A program made the translations under genes and the position numbers. Source: an uncultured Flavobacteriaceae bacterium (lineage in GTDB: Bacteria > Bacteroidota > Bacteroidia > NS11-12g > UBA955). Taken from it: DNA of 64,000 nt. Below the pieces are notes generated by a model that saw nothing but the letters and a program-made list of their open reading frames with translations, ran no database searches and was not told the DNA's origin. Below, in pieces: positions 9,075-52,434 of this stretch (position 1 is its first letter; each line of letters begins with the position of its first letter). The DNA lies in NCBI GenBank assembly GCA_964475595.1, contig CAYYXG010000009.1:9023-73022 (forward strand). The letters are read 5' to 3'.

Positions 9075-10973
9075 TTATTTCACTTCTTCAAAGTCCACAT
9101 CTTCTACTTTACCGTCGCTGTCTGATTTTCCTGCACCTTCAGTGCCGGTGGTTTGTTCTGCCTGATTGGCTGCGTTGTACATGTCCTGGCTTGCCGCTTC
9201 CCATGCTTTGCTGAGTTCGGCCGTTGCCGTTTCAATGGCAGGCAAATCCTTGGATTCGTGCGCTTTTTTGAGCGTTTCCAAAGCAGATTCAATGGCACTT
9301 TTCTTTTCGGCTGGGATTTTATCGCCGTATTCTTTCAGCTGTTTTTCGGTGCTGAAAATCAGTGAATCGGCTGCATTCAGTTTATCTACTTCTTCACGAC
9401 GCTTGTTGTCGGCTTCTGCATTTTCCTGTGCCTCCTGCTTCATTTTTTCGATATCTTCCTTGCTTAATCCGCTGCTGGCTTCAATGCGTATCTTCTGCTC
9501 TTTTCCGGTGGCCTTGTCTTTAGCGCTTACACTCAAAATACCATTTGCGTCGATGTCAAAAGTAACCTCAATCTGAGGTACGCCGCGGGGTGCAGGCGGA
9601 ACTCCGTCCAGTATGAATTTGCCTATGGTTTTGTTGTCGCGAGCCATGGGTCTTTCACCTTGAAGGATGTGAATCTCAACTTGTGGCTGATTATCAGCGG
9701 CTGTGCTGAATACTTCGGTTTTCTTGGTTGGGATGGTGGTGTTTGACTCAATCATTTTGGTAAACACACTACCCATGGTTTCAATACCCAGGCTTAGTGG
9801 GGTAACATCCAGCAGCAGTATGTCTTTTACCTCACCGGTGAGAACGCCTCCCTGCAGGGCTGCGCCAATGGCAACTACCTCGTCGGGGTTTACGCCTTTA
9901 CTGGGGGCTTTGCCGAAGAAATCTTCCACCAATTTTTGTATGGCAGGGATACGGGTAGAGCCACCCACGAGAATTACTTCATCGATTTCGGAAGGATTCA
10001 TGCCTGCATCTGAGAGGGCCTTTTTGCAGGGCTCCAGGGTTCGCTGGATTAGGGTTGCGGCCAGTTGTTCAAACTTACTGCGGGTAAGCTTGCGTACCAG
10101 GTGGGCCGGAACTCCGTCTATGGCAGTTATATAGGGCAGATTGATGTCGGTTTCGGTGCTGCTAGACAGCTCGATTTTGGCCTTTTCAGCTGCTTCTTTC
10201 AAGCGCTGCAATGCCATTGGGTCTTTACGCAGATCCAAGTTTTGCTCCGTTTTGAATTCCTCTGCCAGCCAGTCAATGATTACCTGATCGAAGTCGTCGC
10301 CGCCCAGGTGGGTGTCACCATTGGTGCTTTTTACTTCAAATACACCGTCACCCAGTTCCAGCACGCTGATATCGAACGTACCACCTCCGAGGTCATATAC
10401 GGCTATTTTCATATCCTGTCCTTTTTTGTCCATGCCATAGGCAAGGGCAGCAGCGGTAGGTTCATTGATAATACGCTCAACTTTCAGTCCGGCAATTTCA
10501 CCGGCTTCTTTGGTAGCTTGTCTCTGTGCATCGTCAAAATAGGCAGGAACGGTCACCACGGCGCGGGTAACTTCCTGTCCCAGGAAATCTTCTGCTGTTT
10601 TCTTCATTTTCTGAAGAACCATTGCGCTAATTTCCTGCGGGGTGTAGGTGCGATCACCGATTTTTACACGGGGAGTATCATTGTCACCTTTTACCACTTC
10701 ATAGCTTACACGTCCGGTTTCAGTCTGTACGTTGGAGAATTTTTCTCCCATAAAACGCTTGATAGATGAAATGGTGTGCTTAGGGTTGGTGATGGCCTGA
10801 CGTTTCGCGGGATCACCTACTTTTCTTTCTCCGTTGCCGCCATCCAGAAAGGCAACAATGGAGGGGGTAGTGCGACGTCCTTCGCTGTTGGCAATCACAA
10901 CGGGTTCGTTTCCTTCCAATACGGCAACACAGCTATTGGTGGTGCCCAAATCAATACCTATAATTTTACTCAT
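9075..10973 (-). CDS. dnaK: molecular chaperone DnaK (Hsp70)
   Basis: [21 protein letters not shown]..., DLGGGTFD, 632 aa. Confidence 0.98.
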
Positions 10974-11059: not shown

Positions 11060-12067
11060 TTATGGCAGTATGTTTAACGCCTTGGTTTCTGCGTTATTCC
11101 TCATGAAAATGATGGATCCACTGTCAAATTTTACTTTATCAATTTTTTGTATACAACGGCTGGCAAAAAGTCCGATTCCGCCCTGAATATTGCTGAATTC
11201 TGCCTGTTTTTGCACAATGCCGATAGAGGGCTCGTTCACTGAAATATAATCTGATAATAGCTGATTGCCCCCATAAACCCTGATACCTGCGTATCTCATT
11301 CTGTGATACAGGCCGGGATCTGCGGTAATCGTGTTACGCAGAAATTGCAATAATGCCAGCCGGGGAATTTTGTATAGCATATTGCTATTGCCTATGGCCG
11401 AGGCATTGGTGAGTACATTCCAGGTAGCCACTTTGGTGGTTTTGTTGAATGTGTCATTCACCGGAAACTCATCGTAGGTGATGTCCATTTTTACATCGTA
11501 GGCAAAGCTGTTAGACCCCGCTCTCATACTGATGGTGAGATATTCTGGGGTTACTGCAAAGTTGCTGTTGGAGTCGCGGAATGGCGATAGAATGTTGGCA
11601 GGACCAACCAGATTGGTTTCTGCGCGCACGGTGTTGCCGCTTTTGGGACTAAAGACTTCCAGAATGTATCGTTTACCGGGATTAAGCGATTTTGTGCCGG
11701 AGGTGTTTAAACGGTACAATGGATTTTTATCATTGGCAAACAATCCTGAGTCTTTGGCAATATTCCAAACCCGTGTGAGGTTATCGTTGAAAGTATTGTC
11801 CGTTGACCGAAGAGAAACCATGGCAGAATCCAAATACAAAGAATCGCTGATTTTGGCCACTTGCAGCGCCCCGGTATTCTCATTGAGAAATGCCTTGGCT
11901 ACACGGACGAACTGCACGCTGTCATTCACGTTGAGCATGCCATAAACGACCATGGTTTCTTTCCAATCAGCATTGATATCCAAATCGTTTTTACAAGAAA
12001 ACAATGCGATAATCGCCGTAAAAAATGCGGAGATTATGTGGCGGTATGCTGTTGGCAGTTTTTTCAC
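11060..12067 (-). CDS. hypothetical lipoprotein
   Basis: Signal peptide plus lipobox (IIALFSCKND). ORF start is GTG in the tracked frame; an internal ATG is possible. Confidence 0.5.
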   Translation of the reverse strand: MKKLPTAYRHIISAFFTAIIALFSCKNDLDINADWKETMVVYGMLNVNDSVQFVRVAKAFLNENTGALQVAKISDSLYLDSAMVSLRSTDNTFNDNLTRVWNIAKDSGLFANDKNPLYRLNTSGTKSLNPGKRYILEVFSPKSGNTVRAETNLVGPANILSPFRDSNSNFAVTPEYLTISMRAGSNSFAYDVKMDITYDEFPVNDTFNKTTKVATWNVLTNASAIGNSNMLYKIPRLALLQFLRNTITADPGLYHRMRYAGIRVYGGNQLLSDYISVNEPSIGIVQKQAEFSNIQGGIGLFASRCIQKIDKVKFDSGSIIFMRNNAETKALNILP

Positions 12068-17278: not shown

Positions 17279-18172
17279 TTATAGCATAACATCAGGCGAG
17301 TTTACATTTATGGTTGTTCTGATCCTTTTCCATACAGTACCCACATCCGGGTGGCTTTTCTGGCTGTCATAAGCGTAAATCCCCTTGTATTTATAGCCGG
17401 TGAGTCCTAAAATATCTTTATAGTGAAAGAACACCACGCGTTTTTGACTTGTATTTCGATGGGCCTCATAGTGTTCCAACTTGATGGTAGCATCGGCATG
17501 GGTTTCTATAATTTCCTCTTCGTCCGCACTCATCTGGTTTAGCCAGCCTTTTCTTGTCTTTTCCGAGGGCCACCATAGCAAATACGCTGCATTTTTTGGG
17601 TGTGAAATTCCGCCCAGTCTTAAATAGCCACGTTTGGTCTTGCTAAATTCAGCATCAAATAATGTGCAGATATCTTCAATATTGGATAGTGAAATATCGT
17701 CTGTGGTGCTAATGTTCTTTTTTAATTTCCAAAACTCCGGATTCCTCTCCGTATCGGGCTGCCAGGGTTTGAATGTGCCGTTTTTTTGCTGCGTTTCCAG
17801 TGCATTTAAAATTTCAGATACAATATGGTCAATCTGTTGGTGGATGTCTTTAAGTTCCTTCCGACAATCAATTACATACAGCGTATGACCGGTGTTGTTT
17901 TCAATTTCTATTTTTCGTATTTCGTCTGCTTGAATCCGATCCTCAGAGCTGTAGTGGGCCGGCTCATTCACTTCGATGTGGATGTTAAATTGAGGCAGAT
18001 AAACGTCGGTCAAGGCATATTTATCGCTGTGGCGATTTACGTATTGCTGTGGAACGATTTTTATTTCATCGTTGTCCAGTTTATGCCATAGTCTAGTCAG
18101 GCAATAGTGTTCAATGGCCTTGCTGCTGGTTTTCTGAAATAAACGCGTGATGAATTCAACCTTGTAGCTCAT
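17279..18172 (-). CDS. hypothetical protein (orphan; possible nuclease-like N-domain)
   Basis: 297 aa with no recognisable housekeeping family. Located in the tRNA-His-proximal slot. Confidence 0.45.
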   Translation of the reverse strand: MSYKVEFITRLFQKTSSKAIEHYCLTRLWHKLDNDEIKIVPQQYVNRHSDKYALTDVYLPQFNIHIEVNEPAHYSSEDRIQADEIRKIEIENNTGHTLYVIDCRKELKDIHQQIDHIVSEILNALETQQKNGTFKPWQPDTERNPEFWKLKKNISTTDDISLSNIEDICTLFDAEFSKTKRGYLRLGGISHPKNAAYLLWWPSEKTRKGWLNQMSADEEEIIETHADATIKLEHYEAHRNTSQKRVVFFHYKDILGLTGYKYKGIYAYDSQKSHPDVGTVWKRIRTTINVNSPDVML

Positions 18173-18951: not shown

Positions 18952-19028
18952 TGGGCGAATAACCGGGTTCGAACCGGCGACCCCCAGTGCCACAAACTGG
19001 TGCTCTAACCAACTGAGCTATATCCGCC
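18952..19028 (-). tRNA. tRNA-His (anticodon GUG)
   Basis: Manual fold: encoded G-1 pairs with discriminator C73. Acceptor GCGGATA/TATTCGC. Anticodon stem CCAGT/ACTGG with loop TTGTGGC (GTG anticodon). T-loop TTCGAAC. Confidence 0.9.
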
Positions 19029-19194: not shown

Positions 19195-20244
19195 TTGGCC
19201 GCTCTGTTGACTGCCGGAAACAAAGTTTCAGTGGTTTATGTGCGTTATCATGCAAACGGAGGAAACCCTGAAATTGTGAAGCATTCGCAGTCAGGCTTTG
19301 ATGAATATGCCCTGAGTATTCCCCGCAGACATGGATTATTCGCATTTTTTTACCATCAGTTTCAGGTGAAAAAGTTGCTCAACCAATTTTTTGAAATATG
19401 CACTGATGTCAGCCTTGTGCATGTGCAGGTGGGCTGGAAAGCGGCTTGGGATACTGCGTTTTTTCTCAAAAGGAAAGGACTTCCGTGGGTTGTCACCGAG
19501 CACAACACAGATTGGCTGCCGCAGGACAGGCAATATCCGCATTGGAAAAGAATGCTCACTGCATGGACCTTGCGCAGGGCCAATGCCTTAACCGCAGTTT
19601 CAGATAATCTTGCCGATGTGCTTAAGGCCGCCACGGCACAATCGGTAACGGTAATTCCCAATCCGGTTGTTCGTGAATTTTCAAACGCAAACATCATCAT
19701 GCCCCAAAATGCAGGGCTTGTTTTTTTGCATGTATCCAATTTTAATTTATGGCAGAAACAGACTGACACTATCATCAGGGTGTTTTCAAGGTACGTACAG
19801 GAGAATCCAAAAGCCAAACTGCAATTAAATGTACCTGAGATTGCGTTTTTGAAGTTCAAGGAGGCAAACCCTCAATATTGTTGGGAAAACATGGAATGGT
19901 TGTCGCCAGTGACCGATAAAAAAGTTTTAATGCAACGCATGCAAAACGCTGACTTCTTGGTGAGTTATAGCAGGTTTGAAACATTTGGATTGGCAATTGC
20001 CGAGGCGTTGTGTCTGGGTGTTCCGGCTATTTATACCCCCTGCAAAGGTGCAGACATACATATTAACGAAAGAATGGGAATTGCTTGTGATGCCCACAAT
20101 GAGGAAACATTACTAAATGCGATGCGAGACTCTGCCCATTTTTCGGCAGACAGAAACTATATTGCAGGCAAAGCCAGAGCGGTTTTCCATTCGGATGCCG
20201 TATTGGATGCATATGAAGCCTTGTATCAAAAACTGTTGAGATAA
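19195..20244 (+). CDS. glycosyltransferase family 4 (GT1/GT4 fold), N-terminus lacks a canonical start
   Basis: C-domain motifs FETFGLAIAEALCLGVPAI. ORF begins with TTG. In-frame GT-like sequence (HILLYCSWYPTPESPLNGIFCRELAALL) extends upstream to about 19126 with no ATG/GTG/TTG. Confidence 0.7.
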   Translation: MAALLTAGNKVSVVYVRYHANGGNPEIVKHSQSGFDEYALSIPRRHGLFAFFYHQFQVKKLLNQFFEICTDVSLVHVQVGWKAAWDTAFFLKRKGLPWVVTEHNTDWLPQDRQYPHWKRMLTAWTLRRANALTAVSDNLADVLKAATAQSVTVIPNPVVREFSNANIIMPQNAGLVFLHVSNFNLWQKQTDTIIRVFSRYVQENPKAKLQLNVPEIAFLKFKEANPQYCWENMEWLSPVTDKKVLMQRMQNADFLVSYSRFETFGLAIAEALCLGVPAIYTPCKGADIHINERMGIACDAHNEETLLNAMRDSAHFSADRNYIAGKARAVFHSDAVLDAYEALYQKLLR

Positions 20245-20246
20245 TT

Positions 20247-22094
20247 ATGTGTGGAATTGCCGGAATATTCAGTCTAAAGCCAATCGCTGCAAGGGAAATG
20301 GCCAGGATTTGTGCGCAGTTTTCCGAAAATTTGTCGCACCGGGGGCCGGACGATGAGGGCTATGTGCTGATTGATACCCAATGGAAACCCCATGTGTTTG
20401 GAGGTGAGCGTACATTGGCAGAATTGCAATTGCCGCATATAAATTCCGCTACAGGCGACTTTTTGGGCGCATTGGTTCACAGGCGCTTGAGCATAATTAG
20501 TCCGGGTAAGTCCGGCCATCAACCATTGTATGACGAAAATCATGCTCTTAGTTACAATGGTGAGACATTCAATTTTCAAGATCTGGATAAAACACTGGGT
20601 GTCGAAAACCGCAGTCGGACAGATACGGAGACCGTTTTTAATCTGCTGAAAATTAAAGGTCCCGAATCCGTATTTTTATTGGATGGGTTTCATGCAATGG
20701 GATTTGCGGATTTGGGAAAACGCATCCTGCACCTTCGCCGCGATACCACCGGGGTGAAGCCGCTGTTTATTGCGCAGACTGATACGGCCTTTGCTTTTGC
20801 CTCAGAAACCCGTGCTCTGCGAAATTTGTTAAAATCGGTCACTGTGAATCCTCAAGCGGTTTTTCATCATTTATGTGAGGGGTTGTTGTTGCCCGAACAA
20901 GGTTTCTACCATGAAATAATGTCGGTACATGAGGGCTTAGATGTTGATTTACAAAATCTGGAAACAACCCCTGTTTATTACCCGGAAATTGATGAAAAGC
21001 CCAATCATGATTTGAAATCGCAGCTGGAAAACAGTGTGAGAAAACGCCTGATGTCTGATGTGCCGCTCGGATTTGCTGTGAGCGGAGGACTGGATAGTGC
21101 AGCCATTATTGGCCTTGCCAGAAAATCTCTGGGTACTGATGCCCCGCTTTCTTTATTTTCCATAATTTCTTCAGATCCATCATCAGATGAAGCTTTTTGG
21201 CAGCAGCAGGTGGCGGAATATAATCATGCGGAATGGCATCGCTTTGCCATAGAAGATTCCGGATCGCATTTGCTGGAAGAAGTTACCCGCGCCACCGATT
21301 TACCCCCTATTGCATGGAATAACCTGGCGCATTTTGAACTTTGCCGATTGGCAAAATCAAAGGGAGTAACGGTTTTCTTTAATGGGCAGGGTGCCGATGA
21401 GCTATTTGGAGGTTATCCTGATTATTTGTATCGCGATTTCTGGGCATTACAGGGAATTTTTTTGGGTAAAAATCATTTCCCTGTTTCATATAGCAATGCA
21501 TTAACGGAAACCCTGAAGCTTCAGGCCAAAATTTTCTTGCCGTTTCTGGCGAGAAAGATGGCAGTTAATAAAGCTAAAGGGTTGCTAAATGCAGATATGA
21601 TGCGGCATGAACTGTATATACCTCGTTTATCGCATTTGAGCGCCGATCATAAAATGCAGACCGATTTTTATGGTCAGAAATTGAGACAGATGCTTACATG
21701 GGAAGACTTAAACAGCATGGCCCACGGGTTGGAAAGTCGCAATCCTTTCGCCGATGATATGCAGCTGGCAAAATGGCTGAATGTGCAATTGAAGGAAAAA
21801 GTAAAAAATGGTTACACCAAAGGGATTTTGCGCGATGTGCTCAAGGATGTGATGCCCGAAAGCATCCGTTGGCGGGTAGATAAAAAAGGATTTACCGTGC
21901 CGGATGCAAACCTTACTTGGAAAAACCGAAATGCTTGGACTGGATATTTTATGTCGGAAGTTCTGGATCTTTGGTCGCCAAGGGCTCATAGAGAGCGTTT
22001 ATTAAAAAAATTACAGCAAAACGATGAAAACGGCCTGAAGTGGTTGTTTCGGCTTTCGGCAATGTCAGTATTTCTACAGCAATCTAAATCATGA
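20247..22094 (+). CDS. asparagine synthase (glutamine-hydrolysing), AsnB family amidotransferase
   Basis: N-terminal MCGIAGIF Ntn-glutaminase start plus SGGLDS PP-loop. Confidence 0.9.
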   Translation: MCGIAGIFSLKPIAAREMARICAQFSENLSHRGPDDEGYVLIDTQWKPHVFGGERTLAELQLPHINSATGDFLGALVHRRLSIISPGKSGHQPLYDENHALSYNGETFNFQDLDKTLGVENRSRTDTETVFNLLKIKGPESVFLLDGFHAMGFADLGKRILHLRRDTTGVKPLFIAQTDTAFAFASETRALRNLLKSVTVNPQAVFHHLCEGLLLPEQGFYHEIMSVHEGLDVDLQNLETTPVYYPEIDEKPNHDLKSQLENSVRKRLMSDVPLGFAVSGGLDSAAIIGLARKSLGTDAPLSLFSIISSDPSSDEAFWQQQVAEYNHAEWHRFAIEDSGSHLLEEVTRATDLPPIAWNNLAHFELCRLAKSKGVTVFFNGQGADELFGGYPDYLYRDFWALQGIFLGKNHFPVSYSNALTETLKLQAKIFLPFLARKMAVNKAKGLLNADMMRHELYIPRLSHLSADHKMQTDFYGQKLRQMLTWEDLNSMAHGLESRNPFADDMQLAKWLNVQLKEKVKNGYTKGILRDVLKDVMPESIRWRVDKKGFTVPDANLTWKNRNAWTGYFMSEVLDLWSPRAHRERLLKKLQQNDENGLKWLFRLSAMSVFLQQSKS

Positions 22095-23365
22095 GCAAAA
22101 GCAGCGCGCTCAATACCTTTATAAGTCAGTTGCTTAGAACCATACTTGCAGCTGTATTTGTGGTGCTATGTTCGCGCTGGATGGGGCCGGAGGGCAGGGG
22201 AGAGCTGGGTCTGATTCTGTTCTGGGTAGGGCTGTTGGCCACAGGCAGCGATTATGTGGGAGGAAGCAATTTGGCTAATGCGATGCAGCGAAATCCTCTG
22301 GCTTCCGTATTCCCGGTGAGTGTTTTATGGTCATGCGTTATTGTCCTAATGGGTTTTGCCGGCTTAAGTTACTTCTTTGGTTTATCGCTTGCGTGGAAAG
22401 TTGCCTCCCTGGCATTACCCTTGCTATTGTTGAGTATTTTGTACAATGTACAACAGGGCTTGGCGCTTGTTCGTCAGCGAAATAGACTACAATTATTGCT
22501 GGAAGTATTGAAGTTGTTGCTATTATTATTGTTTGTTAATACCACTCTTTCATCAAGTGTTTCTGTTTCTTCGGTCATTACCTCAATGGTTCTTGCTTAC
22601 GGGGTGGTTTTGACATTGGCCACCGGCTTGCTCAATCAGGTAATTGGTCAGGCGCTAAAAAGCAGACAAAGCCCTCCCAAAGATCTTTTCACCAATGGGT
22701 TTTGGAGTCAGAACGGCCATTTGGCGCAGTTTCTGGCATATCGCCTTAGTTTATATACACTTACCTATTTGCTGGGACATCATGCAGCGGCGGGTATATA
22801 TGCCAACGCATTACTGATAGCAGATGCCATCTGGATTTTTGCCAACAGTTTTGGTACCATCGCCCACGTTAGGATATTGCGCAGTAAAAACGAAAATTTC
22901 AAGGCAGATATCACCCTGCGTTATGCGATTTTTGCATTGGTGGGCACTTTACTTGCCTGTTTATTGCTGGCCATGTTGCCCACTCGGGTTTTTGTATGGG
23001 TGTTTGGTATCGGTTTTGAAAACCTCAAAGACACTACATTGCTGCTTATTCCGGCCATCTTAGCGGTGGCTGCGTCTAGTTTATTTAGCCATTATTTGCA
23101 TGCGGTAAACAGATTTAAAGCACTATTTTTTGCCAATGTATGCGGACTTATTCTTCAGACAGTCATGGGCTTTTGGCTGATTCCCCGCTGGGGCGTTTAT
23201 GGTGCTTGCCTGGCAGCCGATGTGGGTTTTATCCTTACGTTTTTATTAGTCTACGGTTTTTTCAAATCCCAGAATCCCCATGCACGCTTAAAAGGTAAAA
23301 TTCGTTTCAGACTTTTACTGAAAGTTTGTATGCGGATTGTAAAGGGACGATCTGCCAGTCTATAG
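22091..23365 (+). CDS. oligosaccharide flippase (Wzx/MOP superfamily) membrane protein
   Basis: 424 aa, about 12 predicted TM helices, ATGA overlap with the AsnB-like gene. Confidence 0.65.
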   Translation: MSKSSALNTFISQLLRTILAAVFVVLCSRWMGPEGRGELGLILFWVGLLATGSDYVGGSNLANAMQRNPLASVFPVSVLWSCVIVLMGFAGLSYFFGLSLAWKVASLALPLLLLSILYNVQQGLALVRQRNRLQLLLEVLKLLLLLLFVNTTLSSSVSVSSVITSMVLAYGVVLTLATGLLNQVIGQALKSRQSPPKDLFTNGFWSQNGHLAQFLAYRLSLYTLTYLLGHHAAAGIYANALLIADAIWIFANSFGTIAHVRILRSKNENFKADITLRYAIFALVGTLLACLLLAMLPTRVFVWVFGIGFENLKDTTLLLIPAILAVAASSLFSHYLHAVNRFKALFFANVCGLILQTVMGFWLIPRWGVYGACLAADVGFILTFLLVYGFFKSQNPHARLKGKIRFRLLLKVCMRIVKGRSASL

Positions 23366-23992
23366 CAATTCGTGTATCCAAACCGCTACGTGCCCGTCAA
23401 AAATGGCATACTCCATGATAAAATCCTGTTGTATACCGGGCTTGTGGAAGGAAGCGGAAAACCTGCCGGAATCGCCTGTCTCGAAAGGTCCAACCGTCAT
23501 ATGTTTTTTAAAATCCACTTCCTTTTTGCCATACCATTTATAGAGACTTTCTTTGGCGCCCCAAATAATTAAAAGGGAGATGCTATGGTGGGTTTTGCGG
23601 ATGTTGGATTTATCATCAACATTGCAAAATTTATCTTCTATTCTGAGGATTTTGGGACCTTGCGTTTCAATGTCAATACCGGTAGGACCGTTTTCGTCGA
23701 TGACAGCAGCAGCAAAGTTTCCACTGTGGCTGATACTTAGGTGCGGTGTACCTCCTTCAAAATGGGGTTTTCCCACCTCATCTTTGGTTAGTTTTCCTTC
23801 GGGAACAAGCGTGCGAAGCAGCAACCTGCTGCTTAGATAGTGCAATCTTTTGTTGGCATGTATTCCCTCTAAAAAAACAATCTCATCTGCCGTTGGGTCG
23901 TACATTTGTAAAAGCGTTTCTTCGTCCTCGGTAATTTGCCAAAAGGCAATTTTTTTACCGGGCTGTGGAAACATCAGACGATCCAACGGCAT
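23360..23992 (-). CDS. 4'-phosphopantetheinyl transferase (Sfp/EntD type)
   Basis: GTGIDIE and WGAKESLYK motifs. Start placed at internal ATG (MPLDRLMF); the ORF could extend to 24031. Confidence 0.8.
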   Translation of the reverse strand: MPLDRLMFPQPGKKIAFWQITEDEETLLQMYDPTADEIVFLEGIHANKRLHYLSSRLLLRTLVPEGKLTKDEVGKPHFEGGTPHLSISHSGNFAAAVIDENGPTGIDIETQGPKILRIEDKFCNVDDKSNIRKTHHSISLLIIWGAKESLYKWYGKKEVDFKKHMTVGPFETGDSGRFSASFHKPGIQQDFIMEYAIFDGHVAVWIHELL

Positions 23993-24881
23993 GACTGCGA
24001 AATTACAGGTAAAGCACCTCAAAACATACACCGGGCATCAATCGGCGATATATGCTTTGTGTTCGGATGGTGAGGGCGGTTTTTTTTCTGCCGGAGGCGA
24101 CGGAATGTTGGTGAGATGGAACCCGGAAAAGCAGGATGGTGTTTTGGTAGCCCGCATACCCGACAATGTGTACTGTCTGGCTTTTGATGAAACAAGGGGA
24201 ACATTGCTGGCCGGAACGCGTAAAGGCGAACTTTTTGTTATTACGGATATTTTGTCCACCACACCCATTGTCAAAAGGTTTGAGGCCCATGTGAAAGGGT
24301 TATACAAATTAATGGTTACCGTTGACGGGTACGTTTCGTCGGGGGGCGATGGCCATATTTTGTTTTGGGACAGGCAGTTTCAAGTTGTTGGAAAAATTAA
24401 TAATTCACTGGAATGTACGCGGGCACTGTGTTATGATCATGAGTACAATCTGTGGGCAGGCAGCAGCGATAATGCCATCAGGATTTACAACAGGGATTTA
24501 CAGCTTCAGACAACTCGAAGCGGCCATACGAATAGTGTTTTTTGTATAACGGCCATACCTGGGGGGAAAGTCATCAGCGGTGGTAGGGATGCCCAATTAA
24601 AACTGTGGAGTAAATCCGAAGCGCCTGAAACAAGCATTTCAGCTCACCTACTTCACATTCATGCCATTCAATTACAACCATCTGAGCGTTTGGTGGCCAC
24701 TGCAAGCATGGATAAAACGGTGAAAATTTGGGATGCCGGGACTTTGGATTTATTGAAGGTGCTGGATAAGGACAAGTTGCCATTTCATAAGGCCTCTGTG
24801 AACACGTTGTTATGGCTTGATGACCATACGCTAGCAAGTGCAGGTGATGATAAGTTGGTGTTTGTTTTTGAGGTTGGGTAA
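23991..24881 (+). CDS. WD40 repeat protein
   Basis: Repeated GH...WD/W units (MLVRWN, ILFWDRQ, LKLWSK, VKIWDAG). Start at internal ATG MTAKLQVKHL. Confidence 0.8.
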   Translation: MTAKLQVKHLKTYTGHQSAIYALCSDGEGGFFSAGGDGMLVRWNPEKQDGVLVARIPDNVYCLAFDETRGTLLAGTRKGELFVITDILSTTPIVKRFEAHVKGLYKLMVTVDGYVSSGGDGHILFWDRQFQVVGKINNSLECTRALCYDHEYNLWAGSSDNAIRIYNRDLQLQTTRSGHTNSVFCITAIPGGKVISGGRDAQLKLWSKSEAPETSISAHLLHIHAIQLQPSERLVATASMDKTVKIWDAGTLDLLKVLDKDKLPFHKASVNTLLWLDDHTLASAGDDKLVFVFEVG

Positions 24882-24945
24882 TGTTTTTACAGGAAAAAAT
24901 AGGCAGACTTATTAATTTACAATTTATAAAGTATATTTTTGCTTT

Positions 24946-25365
24946 ATGAAAATCTTTTTTTTTATAATTACTATTACTTTTATGGTGTTTGGCTGTAGCA
25001 CATTATCTAAAAACGGCGTTTTACTAAATCCTGATATTGTCGCTATTCCAGATACTTTAAGGACTCACTTGGATATAGATACTTCAAGAAAATTGGAAGG
25101 GATTAGCACTAAAAAGAAATTTATAGGTTTTACCATTGAGAGACCAAGTGAATTCTGCACATATTCCGAAATAAACAAGTATGGAAATAATGGCCTTCTT
25201 CACCAGGATTTGCGCGAGGCGGCTGTGTTCAATGCTTTATTGGGAACAAAATATGATATTTTAGTAATGCCCAAATTTGTAACGTACTCTACAAGATCAA
25301 TTTTCGGAAGTAAGATAGTAGTTAAAGTTACAGGCTATGGTGCACATCAATACATAACTAAATAA
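24946..25365 (+). CDS. hypothetical lipoprotein (AT-rich island gene 1)
   Basis: Lipobox VFGCSTLS; about 28 % GC. Confidence 0.5.
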   Translation: MKIFFFIITITFMVFGCSTLSKNGVLLNPDIVAIPDTLRTHLDIDTSRKLEGISTKKKFIGFTIERPSEFCTYSEINKYGNNGLLHQDLREAAVFNALLGTKYDILVMPKFVTYSTRSIFGSKIVVKVTGYGAHQYITK

Positions 25366-26999
25366 TGCGAAAGTTTGTCATTGTTCTTCTGGTTTTGAGT
25401 TTATTGTTAGTGCCAAATTTGAGCCATGCTCAAAAATTTATTTCGGATTATTTTTACGGTATAAAACATTCAAAGACGGATTCAATACTTCTTCAATTCA
25501 AGCCTAATCATAAAGATTTAATCATTGGGACACGATTTTCTAAAGGTAATGACGATTCAGATACTCTTATTATTTCACTAAATAACGAAAGTAAATATAA
25601 TATTCTTAGAAGGTTAAAGGGTGTTGTTTACAGCATTAGTCAAAATTATAATTCAGGGGCGTTTATTATTGATAGTATTAAACCTCTAGAAAATATTACG
25701 CTTAAATTTAAAATTTCTAAATCATCTGATTCATTATATCTTTTTTTAAGTGATTTTTCTAATGGAATTCGCAAACATTATTGTGGTAATGTAAACAATG
25801 AGGAGCCCAAAAAACAAGAAGATTTAGGTTTAAATGCTATTAGTTTTCAAAGAATCGAAATTGACGATTCAAGTTTAGTAGCTCAAATTCCCGTTAAAGC
25901 ATACAAGGTTGATGGTAAATTTCAATCAGGAGAAAAAGTACTCCTGAAATTTATTTATAAATTGAATGATTTAGCTTATCCTATTAGTAATATGAGGTTA
26001 AAAGTGACTGCGGAAAGCCATAATATTTCATTTATTCCTATCAAGCATCAGGTGTCAAATCCAAAGGCAGGTCAGCAATTAAGTTTTATTTATCAATGTG
26101 TTGCATCTGAAAACCTAAAAACTATACCGGTAGAATTGGAGCTTTCTGTAAATGGTAAACAATATAAAAAAGAGGTAGAAACTATAATTAACTCTAATGT
26201 TATTAAGACTGAAAACACCATTATTGCTCAAGAAGAAAGAAATATTGAATTAAATTTCAAGGAGAATATTTTGCAATTGAGTTTCAGGCTGCCACCAATA
26301 TCTTGGAATCAGTCGTACGAATTTAGATTAGATTATAATTTTGATAACAGTCAATATAAAGCTTATTATTTTAAATCAAATAGCTCCCAAGGGATAATAA
26401 GAGAAGTGGGTGTATCTGAAGAAAAATTTGTTAAGTATAACTTGTCTTACAAAAAGATAACTAATAATGACATTTTTAAAGGCTTAGTGTTTTGTTTAAC
26501 ACCTTCATACAGTAATCTTAGTCATATATCAAATTATAAATACGGATTTAGGCTTATTAGGGCAACAGATATTGGTTATTACATTGAAGCAAATACTACT
26601 CTTAATTTTCAAGAAGGAGATTATAATTACAATATTTTAACGAAAGAAATGCAAAATTTTGATAGTTACAAAAGCTATTATGAGTTTAAAAATGGATTGA
26701 GAGTTTTGTCAAGGGACATAGGTGCAGGACTCGTGTATCGTCCTTCTAAAAATTTATTGCTTCAATTAGGGATGTCTTATTATACGTTTAAAGTTAAGCA
26801 AAAAATTGATGTGATTGATTACGGAAATGAAATTGAATACATAAGCAAATATGCAACATTGTTAGATTATGATCTTAAAAAATTAGTCGTTAAGTCATCT
26901 ATTTGTTACATCTGGAACAGTACAATATTGGGCATAAGCTTCTCAAACTATGATAGCAATCAATTCAGACCGTCAATTAATATTGGGAAAAAACTATAA
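25365..26999 (+). CDS. hypothetical secreted beta-rich protein, possible OM beta-barrel (island gene 2)
   Basis: SPI signal peptide (LVPNLSHAQKF). C-terminal about 180 aa show an amphipathic beta-strand pattern. ATGA overlap with gene 1. Confidence 0.5.
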   Translation: MRKFVIVLLVLSLLLVPNLSHAQKFISDYFYGIKHSKTDSILLQFKPNHKDLIIGTRFSKGNDDSDTLIISLNNESKYNILRRLKGVVYSISQNYNSGAFIIDSIKPLENITLKFKISKSSDSLYLFLSDFSNGIRKHYCGNVNNEEPKKQEDLGLNAISFQRIEIDDSSLVAQIPVKAYKVDGKFQSGEKVLLKFIYKLNDLAYPISNMRLKVTAESHNISFIPIKHQVSNPKAGQQLSFIYQCVASENLKTIPVELELSVNGKQYKKEVETIINSNVIKTENTIIAQEERNIELNFKENILQLSFRLPPISWNQSYEFRLDYNFDNSQYKAYYFKSNSSQGIIREVGVSEEKFVKYNLSYKKITNNDIFKGLVFCLTPSYSNLSHISNYKYGFRLIRATDIGYYIEANTTLNFQEGDYNYNILTKEMQNFDSYKSYYEFKNGLRVLSRDIGAGLVYRPSKNLLLQLGMSYYTFKVKQKIDVIDYGNEIEYISKYATLLDYDLKKLVVKSSICYIWNSTILGISFSNYDSNQFRPSINIGKKL

Positions 27000-27001
27000 A
27001 A

Positions 27002-28084
27002 ATGAAAATAAAATCAGAATGTAATATATTTTTCTTGTTGTGTGTTTTATCACTCTTCGGGGTAAGCTTATTGTTGTGGGCATGCAAAGAGAAGGACTAT
27101 GGAGTAAAAGGATCAAATTTCAAGAATCAAGACCCTCCGCTACTGAATTGGGGAATGTTTGAACAAGGAGATACATTCGTGAAAATCAGATATGATTTCA
27201 TGTCTTTTGGTTCGAGAGTAATAAAAAAGGTTGATTTTCTTTATTCGGTTGACTCCTCGCTTGAAAATAATATTTTTTTAATATCTAATTTGGATTTTTT
27301 AAATTCAAGTAATGAATTTACAATAAAACCTATTAATCCTCAGAACAAGTATTGGGGGAAATTCATTATATATACGGATATTGATTCATTTCATTTCGGT
27401 GTAAAATTACTAATGGATAATCAAAAATATTTTTTAACATTATTCGGAAAAGATTTAATTGCCTGGTATCCTTTTGATGGCGACGCAAAAGATTACAGTG
27501 GTTTCGATAATCATGGCGTTCTAACAGGTGTAACCTTGGATGCAGATCGTGATAACCAAGCTAATAGATGCTATAGATTTAATGGGTCTAATTCTTATAT
27601 TCAAATTCCACATAATCCTATCTTTAATGTAGATGACTTTACAATAGCCATGTGGTTTAATGCAGCTGATTATACCGATGGTAATCAAGGTAATCAAAGA
27701 ATCCTCATTAGCAAACGCGAAGGCAGTGGGTGGGGAAATTCTTTTGAAAGTGTTTTAACTACAAATGGATTAAATGGTTTTGGTGTGAATTGGACACTTT
27801 CCAATACCGGAAATGGGTACTTTTGTTACTTTAACAATAATTTAAAGCAATCAACTTGGTATTTTATGACTTATGTTCATAAAACTGATTCCGCGCATCT
27901 GTTTTTGAACGGTATGAAAGTTGCTTCAATAGTTACTGGGAGAACGTTGAATTACAATACACTGCCCATTACGATTGGACAGAGAGGCAATGGTTTATCT
28001 AAATTTAGGGGCTTGTTAGATAATGTTACAATCTGGAGTCGTGCCTTGACAAATAATGAAATAAAATCTTTATATTTATTTTAA
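27002..28084 (+). CDS. LamG/concanavalin-A-like domain lipoprotein (island gene 3)
   Basis: Lipobox LLLWACKEK. C-terminal LamG_3-like block YPFDGDAKDYSG...NSYIQIP...FTIAMWF...LDNVTIWSRALTNNEIKSLY. Confidence 0.6.
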   Translation: MKIKSECNIFFLLCVLSLFGVSLLLWACKEKDYGVKGSNFKNQDPPLLNWGMFEQGDTFVKIRYDFMSFGSRVIKKVDFLYSVDSSLENNIFLISNLDFLNSSNEFTIKPINPQNKYWGKFIIYTDIDSFHFGVKLLMDNQKYFLTLFGKDLIAWYPFDGDAKDYSGFDNHGVLTGVTLDADRDNQANRCYRFNGSNSYIQIPHNPIFNVDDFTIAMWFNAADYTDGNQGNQRILISKREGSGWGNSFESVLTTNGLNGFGVNWTLSNTGNGYFCYFNNNLKQSTWYFMTYVHKTDSAHLFLNGMKVASIVTGRTLNYNTLPITIGQRGNGLSKFRGLLDNVTIWSRALTNNEIKSLYLF

Positions 28085-28109
28085 CCATACATGTATTTTT
28101 TAAAAATTA

Positions 28110-28946
28110 TTATTTAACTTTTCGTATACCGTTTGGAGTAATGTCAATTTTTCGTGCCTTATATAGGGTTCCCACGGCCTTTTTCCAGGCTTTTTTGCTC
28201 ATGCCGAATCGTTCGTAAATATCTTCAGGGCTGCTATTATCCGTGAGCCCGATATATCCGTTATTTTCCCTCAGGGTCTGTAAAATTCGTTCGGCCATAT
28301 CATCCACGTGGGCCATACCGCTTTTTTGCAATGCTAGGTCGGTTTTGCCATCAGGGCGAATATGCTTGATGTATCCTGTAATTTTATCGCCGGTTGTTAA
28401 GGGCTGAAAAACTTCGTTGGAATAAATGATACCGCTGTGTTCTTTGCCGATGATGGCATTGTAACCCAGGGGTGTTTTATTCCAGATGAGCAGTTCAACG
28501 GCATCGCCTTCCTCGAATGGCAACGGAGTTTTATTTAAATATTTGCTGATTTTGGCGGTTGCAGCAAGGCGTTCAGATACTTTATCAAAATAGACATAAA
28601 CCACATATTTCTTACCACGAATCATTGGGACATTTTGTTCGCGCACGGGCACCAGCAGGTCTTTCAGCAAGCCCCAGTCCATGAATGCCCCAAAGTGCGT
28701 GGTGGATTTACATGTGAGGGCAGCAAACTCGCCAAGCTGCACAAAAGGTTTTTCAGTGGTGGCCACGATTCTATCGTCTGAGTCATAATATACAAAGACA
28801 TCTACCATGTCGTCCGGTGCCGCATGGGGGGGCAGATACTTACCGGGCATCAGGATTTCGCCACCATCTCCATCATCGAGAAAAGCACCAAAATCTACGA
28901 GGCGGTTTATTTTTAAATGGTTGTATTTGCCCGGAGTGGCTTTCAT
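28110..28946 (-). CDS. cvfB: CvfB family S1-domain RNA-binding protein
   Basis: YNHLKINRLVDFGAFLDDGDGGEILMP plus further S1-like repeats and a C-terminal winged-helix region. Confidence 0.7.
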   Translation of the reverse strand: MKATPGKYNHLKINRLVDFGAFLDDGDGGEILMPGKYLPPHAAPDDMVDVFVYYDSDDRIVATTEKPFVQLGEFAALTCKSTTHFGAFMDWGLLKDLLVPVREQNVPMIRGKKYVVYVYFDKVSERLAATAKISKYLNKTPLPFEEGDAVELLIWNKTPLGYNAIIGKEHSGIIYSNEVFQPLTTGDKITGYIKHIRPDGKTDLALQKSGMAHVDDMAERILQTLRENNGYIGLTDNSSPEDIYERFGMSKKAWKKAVGTLYKARKIDITPNGIRKVK

Positions 28947-29584: not shown

Positions 29585-30151
29585 TTAAGGTCGGTAGTAG
29601 TGCAACTGAAAGAAGTTGGATTTGCTGCCAATGACCGATTCAACAGAAACATTATTTAACCAAACTGGGGCAGGATTTTCGTAGTAGTAGCGAAACGAGC
29701 TCATGGGCCATGCTTGGATATCGTCGGTAAAACCATGTTTAACGGGGTTTCGGTGTATGTAAACGAGGACCCGAAAAAAGTCGGTTTGGTCGCTGATAAT
29801 TCTGCGGCGGAGATTTTTCATAAACATGGAGCCGCGGCGGTTATATTTTTTATTATAGGCCTTGCAATAAGAGTTGAAGAAATTAGAAAATTGCTGGCTG
29901 TAATAACGTTCCTTTTTATCCGCTGGCAGACCTTCAAGGTCTATAAGACCTTGAAGGTCTGCCGGCGATTTGGTACGAATTAAAAAATGGAAATGGTTGG
30001 GCATCAGGCAGTACGCATAGGTATCCGCTACCGGACCTATATATTTCCCATACTGCTGCAAGAAAAATCGGTAATTCTCCGCTTCCTTAAATAAATTGTC
30101 ATGCCCGTTTGCATGGTTGTAAATGTGGTAGAACGTTTCAGGTAAAATCAT
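29585..30151 (-). mobile_element. REP-associated tyrosine transposase (RAYT) / IS200-like Y1 HuH transposase, solitary
   Basis: HuH motif CLMPNHFHFLI and catalytic-Tyr motif LVYIHRNPVKHGF. Start at internal ATG MILPETFYHIYNH. No partner tnpB or inverted repeats seen. Confidence 0.8.
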
Positions 30152-30262
30152 AAAAATAATAATAAAATAAATATAAATCGTAAATAAATAAACAACATGC
30201 AATAATAATACTTTTTTCTCATTTTCAACCCCTTTCCGCTTTTCCTATCTTTGCACCTTCCA

Positions 30263-52389: not shown

Positions 52390-52434
52390 TTTAGATTTAA
52401 GCCTCAAAAAGTGTTCCATTAAATGCAGACGATG

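What the first reader, a model, noticed from the sequence alone, without database searches (positions are those of the whole stretch)
24882..28109. Sharply AT-rich 3.2-kb island encoding a lipoprotein, a large secreted beta-rich protein and a LamG-domain lipoprotein
GC drops from about 45-50 % in the flanks to about 25-30 % across three co-oriented genes. The first two are ATGA-coupled and the second and third are 2 nt apart. The island is inserted between a WD40 gene and convergent cvfB. All three products are envelope-targeted (lipobox, SPI signal, lipobox). None matches a housekeeping family. Only the third has a recognisable fold, a concanavalin-A/LamG jellyroll. A putative -7 box TATTTTTG sits 5 nt before the first ATG, suggesting leaderless or very short-leader expression. 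Compositional anomaly plus an operon of unknown surface proteins is the classic signature of a horizontally acquired cell-surface module (adhesin, fimbria-like or cargo-binding system) that has not been characterised.
Basis: seen in the sequence. Interest (0 to 1): 0.65.

Follow-up and report, generated by a model that had tools for sequence, protein, structure and literature searches.

The report
Inserted AT-rich outer-membrane three-gene cassette
A 3.2-kb AT-rich block was inserted between two conserved genes of a freshwater Bacteroidota genome; it carries a rare, uncharacterised three-gene cassette (small lipoprotein, outer-membrane barrel protein, lipoprotein with an exchangeable sugar-binding-type head) that probably puts a binding protein on the cell surface.

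Summary
The island is 30.2 % GC against 43.9 ± 1.6 % in the rest of the window (z = -8.6), and its GC3 is 0.23-0.29 against 0.43-0.55. Eight syntenic metagenomic contigs from related organisms have cvfB and the WD40 gene about 37 nt apart with no island, so it is an insertion (window ~24868-28122).

The three genes form a conserved, tightly coupled cassette. It occurs in at least five other genomic contexts and is always AT-rich. It is very rare: about 15 clusters of A among 5.8 billion proteins, and 5 full-length B representatives among 1.84 billion.

- A is a lipoprotein with no export signal.
- B has an SPI signal obeying the Bacteroidetes Q-rule, three Ig-like beta-sandwiches and a C-terminal OmpX/OmpA-like 8-stranded barrel.
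- C is a lipoprotein with an export-signal-like K-E-(D/E) start, a cassette-specific N-domain and a swappable head (LamG, FISUMP-like, or other).

Best reading, inferred rather than shown: an outer-membrane complex that displays a variable lectin-type head.

No pilin, T9SS, Slam, defence, phage or plasmid signature was found. How the island moves and why it stays AT-rich are unexplained. Function is untested.

The parts
24868..28122 (.). Inserted AT-rich island: the stretch with no counterpart in relatives that have the empty site.
   Evidence: blastn homology to L017/L022 stops at 24867 (L017; at 24113 in L022/L023, whose WD40 genes are more diverged) and resumes at 28123. Alignments place the junctions near 24908 and 28122. 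GC is 0.302 against 0.44.
24105..24881 (+). Left flank: WD40-repeat gene (258 aa as called on the Logan copy).
   Evidence: Pfam WD40, E 1.1e-31. Gene call in L003. Present in all empty-site relatives at 52-82 % aa identity.
24934..24941 (+). TATTTTTG, a Bacteroidota -7-box-like octamer 4 nt before the ATG of A. Possible promoter element, not validated.
   Evidence: Sequence read. The motif is not enriched in the window (58 found, 68 expected) and is not positionally conserved in relatives.
24946..25365 (+). Gene A: 139-aa lipoprotein (lipobox VFGC, Cys17). No acidic export signal after the Cys, so it is predicted to face the periplasm. New family.
25365..26999 (+). Gene B: 544-aa protein. Its start overlaps the stop of A by 1 nt (TAATG).
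   Evidence: Only 3 hits in the word-indexed search. 5 full-length representatives in the exhaustive HMMER search of 1.84 billion proteins.
25365..25430 (+). B signal peptide (residues 1-22), cleavage SHA|Q.
   Evidence: Q23 is invariant. All 13 family N-termini have Q at +1. This fits the Bacteroidetes Q-rule (PMC5837995).
25440..26462 (+). B residues 26-366: three predicted Ig-like beta-sandwich domains, with the invariant motif I-x-I-D-D-S-S/T-L/P-V at residues 164-172.
26475..26996 (+). B residues 371-544: 8-stranded OmpX/OmpA/Ail-like beta-barrel, probably membrane-embedded, with an extended outward hairpin.
27002..28084 (+). Gene C: 360-aa lipoprotein (lipobox LWAC, Cys28), starting 2 nt after B.
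27086..27436 (+). C residues 29-145: the export-signal-like start (KEKD) followed by the cassette-specific conserved N-domain.
   Evidence: Conserved in all C homologues at 26-36 % identity, while the rest is swapped. No Pfam hit. Export-signal consensus from PMC5080379.
27581..28066 (+). C residues 194-355: LamG / concanavalin-A-like jellyroll head.
   Evidence: Pfam Laminin_G_3, E 1.6e-23. Replaced by a FISUMP-like domain in L001/L005 and by an unrelated sequence in L047.
28113..28121 (-). Last three codons of cvfB (K-V-K). They differ from the L-E-M of all empty-site relatives and are probably island-derived.
28110..28946 (-). Right flank: cvfB (S1_2 plus CvfB winged-helix domains), convergent with the cassette.
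   Evidence: Pfam hits. 85-97 % aa identity in relatives.

Best explanation
The island is a horizontally acquired insertion carrying a self-contained three-gene cassette for an outer-membrane complex.

Shown:
- Insertion into an otherwise conserved cvfB/WD40 junction.
- The order A-B-C, with overlapping or nearly abutting reading frames, is kept in every relative found, down to 23 % identity in B.
- The cassette is always about 30-35 % GC in hosts of 43-55 % GC.
- Only the C-terminal head of C is exchanged between lineages.

Inferred mechanism:
- B is exported by Sec/SPI and inserted by BAM through its C-terminal 8-stranded OmpX-like barrel.
- Both barrel termini face the periplasm, so the three Ig-like domains of B hang into the periplasm.
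- A is an inner-leaflet outer-membrane lipoprotein with no export signal. It binds B through its highly conserved N-terminal segment, which is disordered in the monomer model, and acts as a partner or assembly factor.
- C carries a Bacteroidota lipoprotein-export-signal-like K-E-(D/E) start. It is flipped to the cell surface and docks on the barrel and its protruding hairpin through its conserved N-domain.
- C presents a variable lectin-type head (LamG here) that binds an external ligand, most likely a glycan. The cassette therefore works as an exchangeable adhesin or ligand-capture module.
For: Insertion:
- Empty sites in L017-L023 and L027.
- Composition z = -8.6.

Cassette conservation and coupling:
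- Seen in L001/L002, L005-L007, L009, L011/L012, L014-L016, L045, L047 and two contigs without DNA.
- At least five different neighbourhoods.
- AT-rich in all.

Targeting signals:
- Lipobox cysteines conserved.
- Q-rule in 13 of 13 B-family N-termini.
- C starts C-K-E-D-D, C-K-E-D-V, C-K-E-E-V, C-E-E-H-Q or C-K-E-K-D, against the experimentally defined K-(D/E)2 export signal.
- A starts C-[SG]-T-L-[ST]-K with no acidic residue.

Barrel:
- pLDDT about 90.
- Two-residue periplasmic turns, a hydrophobic belt of 4-5 alternating residues per strand, and a Gly/Ser-rich opposite face.
- Relatives end in ...LGxxF.

Head swapping:
- LamG (window, L009, L011, L015).
- FISUMP-like (L001, L005).
- A third unrelated sequence (L047).
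Against: - No experiment or co-folding shows that A, B and C interact.
- The A model is poor (pLDDT 62).
- The window's own C starts K-E-K-D, a weak export-signal match. The K sits at +2, not the optimal +3, and the L047 C has L-K-D-K-N.
- The window's B ends in ...IGKKL, not in an aromatic residue.
- An 8-stranded barrel gives no obvious route for communication between a surface lipoprotein and periplasmic domains.
- The ligand is unknown. LamG and FISUMP domains are not always lectins.
- No mobility genes explain the transfer.
Confidence: 0.45

Rival explanations
1. Periplasmic envelope module. All three proteins act on the periplasmic side. B is an OmpA-like anchor whose Ig-like array reaches the peptidoglycan or inner membrane. 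A is an RcsF-like small lipoprotein associated with or threaded through the barrel. The lectin-type head of C binds a periplasmic glycan such as peptidoglycan or a polysaccharide in transit. The function would be envelope tethering or stress sensing.
For: - Standard topology puts the N-terminal domains of B in the periplasm.
- The export-signal match is weak in the window copy and in L047.
- Regulator genes (LytTR, XRE) adjoin some cassettes.
Against: - The RcsF similarity is weak and rests on a low-confidence model. DUF74/YbjQ scores higher.
- A lacks the four cysteines of RcsF (that RcsF has two disulfides is my own knowledge; the A sequences are).
- The acidic K-E-(D/E) start is conserved in 4 of 6 C lineages.
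- Head swapping and an accessory, horizontally transferred distribution fit outward-facing proteins under diversifying selection better than housekeeping envelope functions.
- The neighbouring regulators are not conserved.
Confidence: 0.2
2. Phage- or predator-related surface modification. The cassette is an accessory 'armour' or decoy that masks or mimics a receptor. The lectin head binds the cell's own surface polysaccharide or incoming phage. It would spread by horizontal transfer under phage pressure.
For: - A small, compositionally foreign island with a patchy distribution.
- It sits at the edge of a variable surface-polysaccharide gene segment.
- Relatives lie beside GIY-YIG-like, HNH-like and Kinase-PolyVal genes.
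- LamG heads resemble domains of phage structural proteins in PHROGs.
Against: - No PADLOC hit for A, B or C.
- No copy on IMG/VR viral contigs, GenBank phages or plasmids.
- No direct evidence of any kind.
Confidence: 0.12
3. Nutrient (glycan) capture accessory. C is a surface glycan-binding lipoprotein of the SGBP kind. It feeds substrate to transporters encoded elsewhere, and A and B only anchor it.
For: - LamG and FISUMP-like heads.
- An export-signal-like start.
- Bacteroidota widely use surface lipoproteins for glycan capture (PMC5080379).
Against: No SusC/TonB-dependent transporter, SusD or glycoside hydrolase lies in or next to any cassette copy.
Confidence: 0.1
4. Type V (Fim/Mfa-like) or other fimbrial operon.
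For: - Lipoprotein precursors and a weak NCBIfam 'TafC family fimbrial protein' hit.
- Foldseek lists usher structures among its low-TM hits.
Against: - The TafC score is 34.5 bits against a cutoff of 410. It covers only the LamG domain, and TafC is a haloarchaeal Tat-fimbria subunit.
- No fimbrillin or Mfa Pfam hit.
- The usher hits have TM-scores of 0.07-0.10.
- The barrel has 8 strands, far too small for an usher.
Confidence: 0.03
5. Not an acquisition. The cassette is ancestral at this site and was deleted in all sampled relatives.
For: The nearest empty-site relative is only 81-88 % identical in nucleotide sequence, so no same-species comparison exists.
Against: - Eight contigs from at least three diverged lineages all have the same ~37-nt junction.
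- The strong compositional contrast.
- The same cassette lies in unrelated neighbourhoods elsewhere.
Confidence: 0.03

Closest known systems
OmpX / Ail / OmpA-N / NspA family of 8-stranded outer-membrane barrels
   Different: - No Pfam OMP_b-brl or OmpA_membrane match. hhalign gives only 6-33 % probability.
- The barrel is at the C-terminus, after about 350 residues of Ig-like domains. OmpA has the reverse order.
- There is no OmpA_C peptidoglycan-binding domain.
- The window copy lacks a terminal aromatic residue.
Uncharacterised PEGA / CarboxypepD_reg-repeat proteins with the same C-terminal barrel (P0023-P0029)
   Same: They are the only detectable sequence relatives of the B barrel (E 1e-13 to 2e-5). 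They share the layout of signal peptide with Q at +1, beta-sandwich repeats and a barrel.
   Different: Their N-terminal domains are unrelated in sequence. The one locus examined (L046) has no A- or C-like neighbours and is not AT-rich. They are also functionally uncharacterised.
RcsF-OmpA/OmpC/OmpF lipoprotein-barrel complexes of Enterobacteria
   Different: No sequence similarity. The A model is of low confidence. The N-terminal segment of A is strongly conserved rather than a low-complexity linker. No Rcs phosphorelay components are present. The phylum is different.
Bacteroidota surface-exposed lipoproteins carrying the lipoprotein export signal (SusD-like, BtuG, SGBPs) bound to an outer-membrane barrel partner
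   Same: The lipobox Cys is followed by K/E/D-rich residues, as in the K-(D/E)2 export signal (PMC5080379). The gene is adjacent to a barrel gene. The head is a putative glycan or ligand binder.
   Different: The partner barrel has 8 strands and is not a 22-stranded TonB-dependent transporter. There are no transport or enzyme genes. The K is at +2 rather than +3. Surface exposure is untested.
Slam (type XI secretion) substrates such as TbpB, HpuA and hemophilin
   Different: Those barrels are soluble and need a DUF560 Slam translocon. None is encoded here, and I know of that system only in Proteobacteria (my own knowledge). The B barrel has a lipid-facing hydrophobic belt and a Gly/Ser lumen face.

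Membership tests
Horizontally acquired genomic island | Base composition and codon usage deviate from the host genome. | tested here: met
   GC 0.302 against 0.4395 ± 0.016, z = -8.6. GC3 0.23-0.29 against 0.43-0.55.
Horizontally acquired genomic island | Absent from the syntenic site in related genomes (empty site). | tested here: met
   Eight contigs with the same flanking synteny have ~37 nt between the cvfB and WD40 stop codons.
Horizontally acquired genomic island | Mobility signatures: integrase or transposase, tRNA target, direct repeats or target-site duplication. | tested here: not met
   The island holds only A, B and C. The nearest tRNA is 6 kb away. No significant terminal repeats. 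No target-site duplication in the junction alignments. No copies on plasmids or phages.
Bacterial lipoproteins (A and C) | Signal peptide ending in a lipobox with an invariant Cys. | tested here: met
   A: VFGC, with Cys17 conserved in at least 90 % of 15 sequences. C: LWAC, with Cys28 invariant in 5 sequences.
Bacteroidota surface lipoproteins (lipoprotein export signal) | K or a polar residue followed by at least two D/E within positions +2 to +6 (optimum C-X-K-(D/E)2). | tested here: inconclusive
   C family: CKEDD, CKEDV, CKEEV, CEEHQ; window CKEKD; L047 CLKDK. The K is one position earlier than the optimum (PMC5080379). A family: no acidic residues.
8-stranded outer-membrane beta-barrels (OmpX/OmpA-like) | Eight antiparallel strands closing a barrel, with short periplasmic turns. 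| tested here: met
8-stranded outer-membrane beta-barrels (OmpX/OmpA-like) | A lipid-facing hydrophobic belt with a polar or small-residue lumen. | tested here: met
   In the alignment-averaged Kyte-Doolittle profile, most strands show 3-5 alternating hydrophobic positions opposite G/S/N/Q/R positions. The pattern is weaker in strands 392-400 and 403-412.
8-stranded outer-membrane beta-barrels (OmpX/OmpA-like) | C-terminal beta-signal ending in an aromatic residue. | tested here: inconclusive
   Most relatives end in ...LGxxF. The window protein and its closest relatives end in ...IGKKL...IGKIL...LGLKI or ...IGAKI.
8-stranded outer-membrane beta-barrels (OmpX/OmpA-like) | Sequence membership in Pfam OMP_b-brl or OmpA_membrane. 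| tested here: not met
   No Pfam hit at E <= 0.1. hhalign probability is 6 % to an OMP_b-brl protein and 33 % to OmpX over one hairpin.
Laminin_G_3 / concanavalin-A-like lectin superfamily (C head) | Pfam PF13385 match above the gathering score. | tested here: met
   83.9 bits against a cutoff of 27.6, full-length model match 1-151.
TafC family fimbrial protein (NCBIfam NF052521) | Score above the curated cutoff (410 bits). | tested here: not met
   34.5 bits, LamG region only. TafC is a haloarchaeal Tat-fimbria subunit.
Type V pili (FimA/Mfa) | Fimbrillin or Mfa-like domains in lipoprotein precursors. | tested here: not met
   No such Pfam or NCBIfam hit for A, B or C. The B fold is Ig-like sandwiches plus a barrel.
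RcsF | Sequence or fold membership with the conserved disulfide-bonded signalling domain. | tested here: not met
Slam / T11SS substrate | A neighbouring DUF560 Slam translocon. | tested here: not met
   No such gene in the island or in any related locus.
T9SS cargo | A C-terminal sorting domain (Por_Secre_tail and related). | tested here: not met
   No CTD family hit in Pfam or NCBIfam for A, B or C.
Known anti-phage defence systems | Match to PADLOC models. | tested here: not met
   0 families for A, B and C at E <= 0.1.

The most novel reading that the evidence does not exclude
A-B-C is a previously unrecognised, self-contained trans-outer-membrane device specific to Bacteroidota. A surface lectin lipoprotein (C) with exchangeable heads is coupled through a small OmpX-like barrel (B), with the threaded or plugging lipoprotein A, to a periplasmic Ig-like array. 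Ligand binding outside would then be transmitted or anchored inside. The cassette would move between genomes as a compositionally distinct unit without mobility genes, and its AT-richness would be maintained by selection, for example for silencing or regulation.
Probability: 0.15. Interest if true: 0.75.

Novelty: new variant of a known kind. Interest (0 to 1): 0.55.

Why it matters
Surface lipoprotein-barrel complexes dominate the Bacteroidota cell surface. The understood examples are built on large TonB-dependent transporters or on BAM.

This cassette would be a minimal, mobile alternative built from three new protein families (A, the N-terminal region of B, the N-domain of C), an unclassified barrel family and a plug-in binding head. 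It offers three things:
- A tractable three-gene system to test how export-signal lipoproteins are retained at the surface.
- A case of domain swapping that marks the specificity determinant.
- A clean example of gene transfer without recognisable mobility machinery, in which AT-richness persists across deep divergence.

The practical impact is modest until a ligand or phenotype is known.

Tried and rejected
- **Family and structure-sequence searches.** Pfam, NCBIfam, PADLOC and PHROGs scans gave nothing for A or B. For C they gave only LamG-type hits. PDB sequence searches with profiles of A, B and the barrel gave nothing significant.
- **TafC fimbria lead.** Rejected: LamG-only match, archaeal family.
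- **Phage or plasmid carriage.** No hits in IMG/VR, GenBank phages or PLSDB.
- **Genome and metagenome scans with the A profile.** The GTDB species representatives hold a single locus, a MAG labelled Chitinophaga pinensis. The pattern scan of JGI metagenome contigs found none, although other look-ups did find JGI copies. That negative therefore reflects the method.
- **N-domain of C.** The search returned only one fragment (P0037) and not even the query proteins. 'Absent elsewhere' is weakly supported.
- **Homology between the N-domain of C and any B domain.** None.
- **Terminal repeats, target-site duplication or tRNA at the borders.** None convincing. The 26-nt, 77 % direct repeat D2 lies inside the A and C coding sequence and is ordinary for AT-rich DNA.
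- **Leaderless or -7-box idea.** The motif occurs at chance frequency and is not conserved in position.
- **Terminator after C.** None detected by the scan.
- **AFDB Foldseek.** Unavailable.
- **Literature.** Nothing relevant on PEGA-plus-barrel proteins.
- **L046 locus.** Checked for A/C-like partners of a PEGA-barrel relative; none found.


Full report
**1. The observation**

Sliding-window composition shows a single deep trough in the 64-kb window. GC is 0.27-0.35 between about 24.85 and 28.15 kb, and 0.38-0.50 everywhere else.
- The stated interval is 0.302 GC. All other 3.2-kb windows average 0.4395 (sd 0.016, minimum 0.3875), so z = -8.6.
- The drop affects all codon positions. GC3 is 0.293, 0.231 and 0.283 for the three genes against 0.43-0.55 in ten neighbours. 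GC1 is about 0.35 against about 0.50.
- The three ORFs are as described: A 24946-25365 (139 aa), B 25365-26999 (544 aa) and C 27002-28084 (360 aa).
- Flanks are a WD40 gene (24105-24881, +) and convergent cvfB (28110-28946, -).

Small corrections:
- The A/B junction is TAATG, a 1-nt overlap, not ATGA.
- The octamer TATTTTTG ends 4 nt before the ATG.
- TANNTTTG is not enriched in the window (58 found, 68 expected) and is not positionally conserved upstream of homologous cassettes.

**2. It is an insertion**

A scan of metagenome contigs with CvfB returned eight contigs from related organisms (CvfB 85-97 % aa identity). tblastn of the window's proteins on them shows the same order throughout: pgk-glyS-205-aa gene-dcd-cvfB, then convergent WD40-PPTase-424-aa membrane protein-AsnB-like. 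Only about 37 nt separate the two stop codons, and there is no trace of A, B or C.
- Nucleotide homology to the nearest relative (L017, 81-88 % identity) stops at window 24867 and resumes at 28123.
- Junction alignments place the left break near 24908 and the right break near 28122.
- The last three codons of cvfB read K-V-K here and L-E-M in all relatives, so they are probably island-derived.
- There is no integrase, transposase, tRNA, target-site duplication or convincing terminal repeat.
- Gain in the window's lineage is far more parsimonious than loss in at least three diverged lineages. However, no same-species genome was available, so the insertion cannot be dated.

**3. A conserved, rare cassette**

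B has only three hits among 5.8 billion clustered proteins in the word-indexed search. An exhaustive profile HMMER search of 1.84 billion representatives found five full-length representatives. A has 15 clusters, all unnamed.

Wherever the contig is long enough, the order A-B-C recurs, with frames overlapping by 1 or 4 nt or separated by 2-13 nt.
- The loci are L001/L002, L005-L007, L009, L011/L012, L014-L016, L045, L047 and two contigs without DNA.
- The most divergent B (P0022, 23 % identity) still sits between an A homologue (38-42 %) and a lipoprotein carrying the N-domain of C.

The neighbourhoods differ:
- WD40/cvfB in the window.
- FTCD upstream with AhpC-TSA and an HTH gene downstream (L001/L005).
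- A LytTR gene upstream and an HNH-like gene downstream (L008/L009).
- A divergent XRE regulator plus a ~200-aa cytoplasmic protein whose gene overlaps A, with or without a GIY-YIG-like gene (L010, L011, L014, L045).

Every copy is 0.28-0.35 GC, while adjacent housekeeping genes are 0.43-0.55. No copy was found on viral contigs, GenBank phages or plasmids. Only one of 185,579 GTDB species representatives carries it.

**4. The proteins**

*A.* It has a lipobox with a conserved Cys17. The mature protein starts C-[S/G]-T-L-[S/T]-K, with no acidic residues.
- The segment I-V-x-I-P-D-T-x-R-T-x-L-x-I-D-T-S-x-x-L-E-G-x-S is nearly invariant, and so is the C-terminal V-K-V-T-G-Y-G-A-x-Q.
- The AF2 model is weak (pLDDT 62). 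Residues 16-36 are unstructured, followed by a strand, helices and a beta-hairpin.

*B.* All 13 family N-termini expose Gln after the signal peptide, which fits the Bacteroidetes Q-rule for SPI substrates (PMC5837995).
- The AF2 model has a mean pLDDT of 74.9, rising to about 90 for residues 370-544.
- It shows three beta-sandwich regions (about 26-141, 159-274 and 293-366) followed by an 8-stranded barrel.
- Foldseek gives probability 1.00 to OmpA, OmpX and Ail. It matches MG, FN3 and transglutaminase sandwich arrays for the N-terminal part, with no meaningful global match.

I favour a membrane barrel (about 0.8) for five reasons:
- The inter-strand connections on the side of the termini are 2-residue turns, while the connections at 380-391 and 413-436 on the other side are long.
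- Most strands have a run of 3-5 alternating hydrophobic positions next to those turns, opposite a Gly/Ser/Asn/Gln/Arg face. The distal halves of the long strands are polar on both faces.
- Most relatives end in ...LGxxF.
- hhalign picks the OmpX G-x-G-x-x-Y-R hairpin, though at only 33 % probability.
- No Slam-type partner is present.

The barrel domain alone is shared with proteins whose N-termini are PEGA/CarboxypepD_reg repeats. The one such locus examined has no A/C partners and normal GC.

*C.* It has a lipobox with an invariant Cys28.
- The mature N-terminus is C-K-E-K-D here. In relatives it is C-K-E-D-D, C-K-E-D-V, C-K-E-E-V, C-E-E-H-Q or C-L-K-D-K.
- The experimentally defined Bacteroidota lipoprotein export signal is K-(D/E)2, optimally C-X-K-(D/E)2 (PMC5080379). 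Most C proteins resemble it, shifted by one position. The window copy is a weaker match.
- Residues ~29-145 form a domain conserved in all C proteins and found nowhere else. That negative is weak, because the search did not even recover the queries.
- The head varies. It is Laminin_G_3 here and in L009, L011 and L015. It is FISUMP-like in L001/L005, below the curated cutoffs. It is an unrelated sequence in L047.

**5. Mechanism**

Shown:
- Insertion into a conserved junction.
- Conservation and tight coupling of the cassette.
- Sec/SPI and lipoprotein targeting signals.
- A high-confidence OmpX-like barrel model.
- Head exchange in C.

Inferred:
- B is a BAM-inserted outer-membrane protein with periplasmic Ig-like domains.
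- A is an inner-leaflet lipoprotein partner that binds B through its conserved segment, which is disordered in the monomer model.
- C is exported to the surface, held by its N-domain on the complex, and presents a lectin-type head.

I put about 0.45 on this 'exchangeable surface-binding module'. The rivals are:
- A wholly periplasmic tether or sensor of the RcsF-OmpA kind (0.2).
- A phage- or predator-related surface modification (0.12).
- A glycan-capture accessory (0.1).
- A fimbria (0.03).
- An ancestral locus lost elsewhere (0.03).

**6. Comparison with known systems**

The barrel works like OmpX/OmpA but is not a sequence member of their Pfam families. The LamG head is a bona fide PF13385 member. 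TafC, type V pilins, RcsF, Slam substrates, T9SS cargo and PADLOC defence systems each fail a defining test (see the membership table). No paper in the searchable library describes this architecture.

**7. Verdict**

The finding is real and the horizontal-acquisition reading is confirmed. The cassette is a new, very rare three-family outer-membrane module whose parts are of familiar kinds (lipoproteins, a small barrel, Ig-like domains, a lectin head). I therefore class it as a new variant of a known kind. Two points remain unexplained: the persistent AT-richness across deeply diverged copies, and movement without mobility genes. Interest is moderate (0.55). It is attractive as a minimal model for surface lipoprotein display, but it has no phenotype yet.

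Noticed in passing
window 17279-18172 (-) and 18954-19027 (-): A PvuRts1I-like N-terminal plus SRA-domain endonuclease, the type that cuts modified cytosine DNA. It lies next to the only tRNA gene in the window.
   Followed up: no
window 29585-30202 (-): A 205-aa IS200/Y1-transposase-like (RAYT-like) gene with a weak Pfam hit. It is 95-98 % identical in L017/L018 but only 33-58 % in L019-L023, while the adjacent dcd and cvfB stay 85-99 %. This is a locally replaced or fast-evolving gene 1.5 kb from the island. It is also present in relatives that lack the island, so it is not linked to the insertion.
   Followed up: partly
window 19195-24881: The left flank is a surface-polysaccharide-type segment: GT4 glycosyltransferase, AsnB-like amidotransferase, a 424-aa membrane protein with no Pfam hit, a PPTase and the WD40 gene. 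Apart from the PPTase (83-96 %), it is much less conserved among relatives (52-82 % aa) than the right flank (85-99 %). The island therefore sits at the boundary between a variable and a conserved segment.
   Followed up: partly
L010 4949-6039; L014 1098-1682; L045 2-577; L009 4101-4562; L009 112-858: In other lineages the cassette has extra neighbours: a ~200-aa cytoplasmic protein whose gene overlaps the start of A, a GIY-YIG-like 135-aa protein, an HNH-like 153-aa protein, a divergent XRE regulator or a LytTR protein. None has a counterpart in the window.
   Followed up: partly
L001 6436-7866; L005 11489-12919; L046 11330-12736: A ~470-aa AhpC-TSA/thioredoxin-like protein follows the cassette in L001/L005, where it is also lower in GC (0.37). 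A similar one lies near the PEGA-barrel relative in L046. This may be coincidence, since I know such genes to be abundant in Bacteroidota.
   Followed up: no
window 52001-53000: A second, milder GC dip (0.381 against ~0.44). Not examined.
   Followed up: no
window 11060-12067 (-) and 9075-10973 (-): A DUF4249 protein, which I recall as a Bacteroidota-typical lipoprotein family, lies next to dnaK. Together with the Q-rule signal peptides, this supports a Bacteroidota origin for the window.
   Followed up: no
L021 8001-8891: The cvfB homologue in L021 aligns over 297 columns against 275 in the others. This implies a ~22-codon insertion in an otherwise conserved gene.
   Followed up: no
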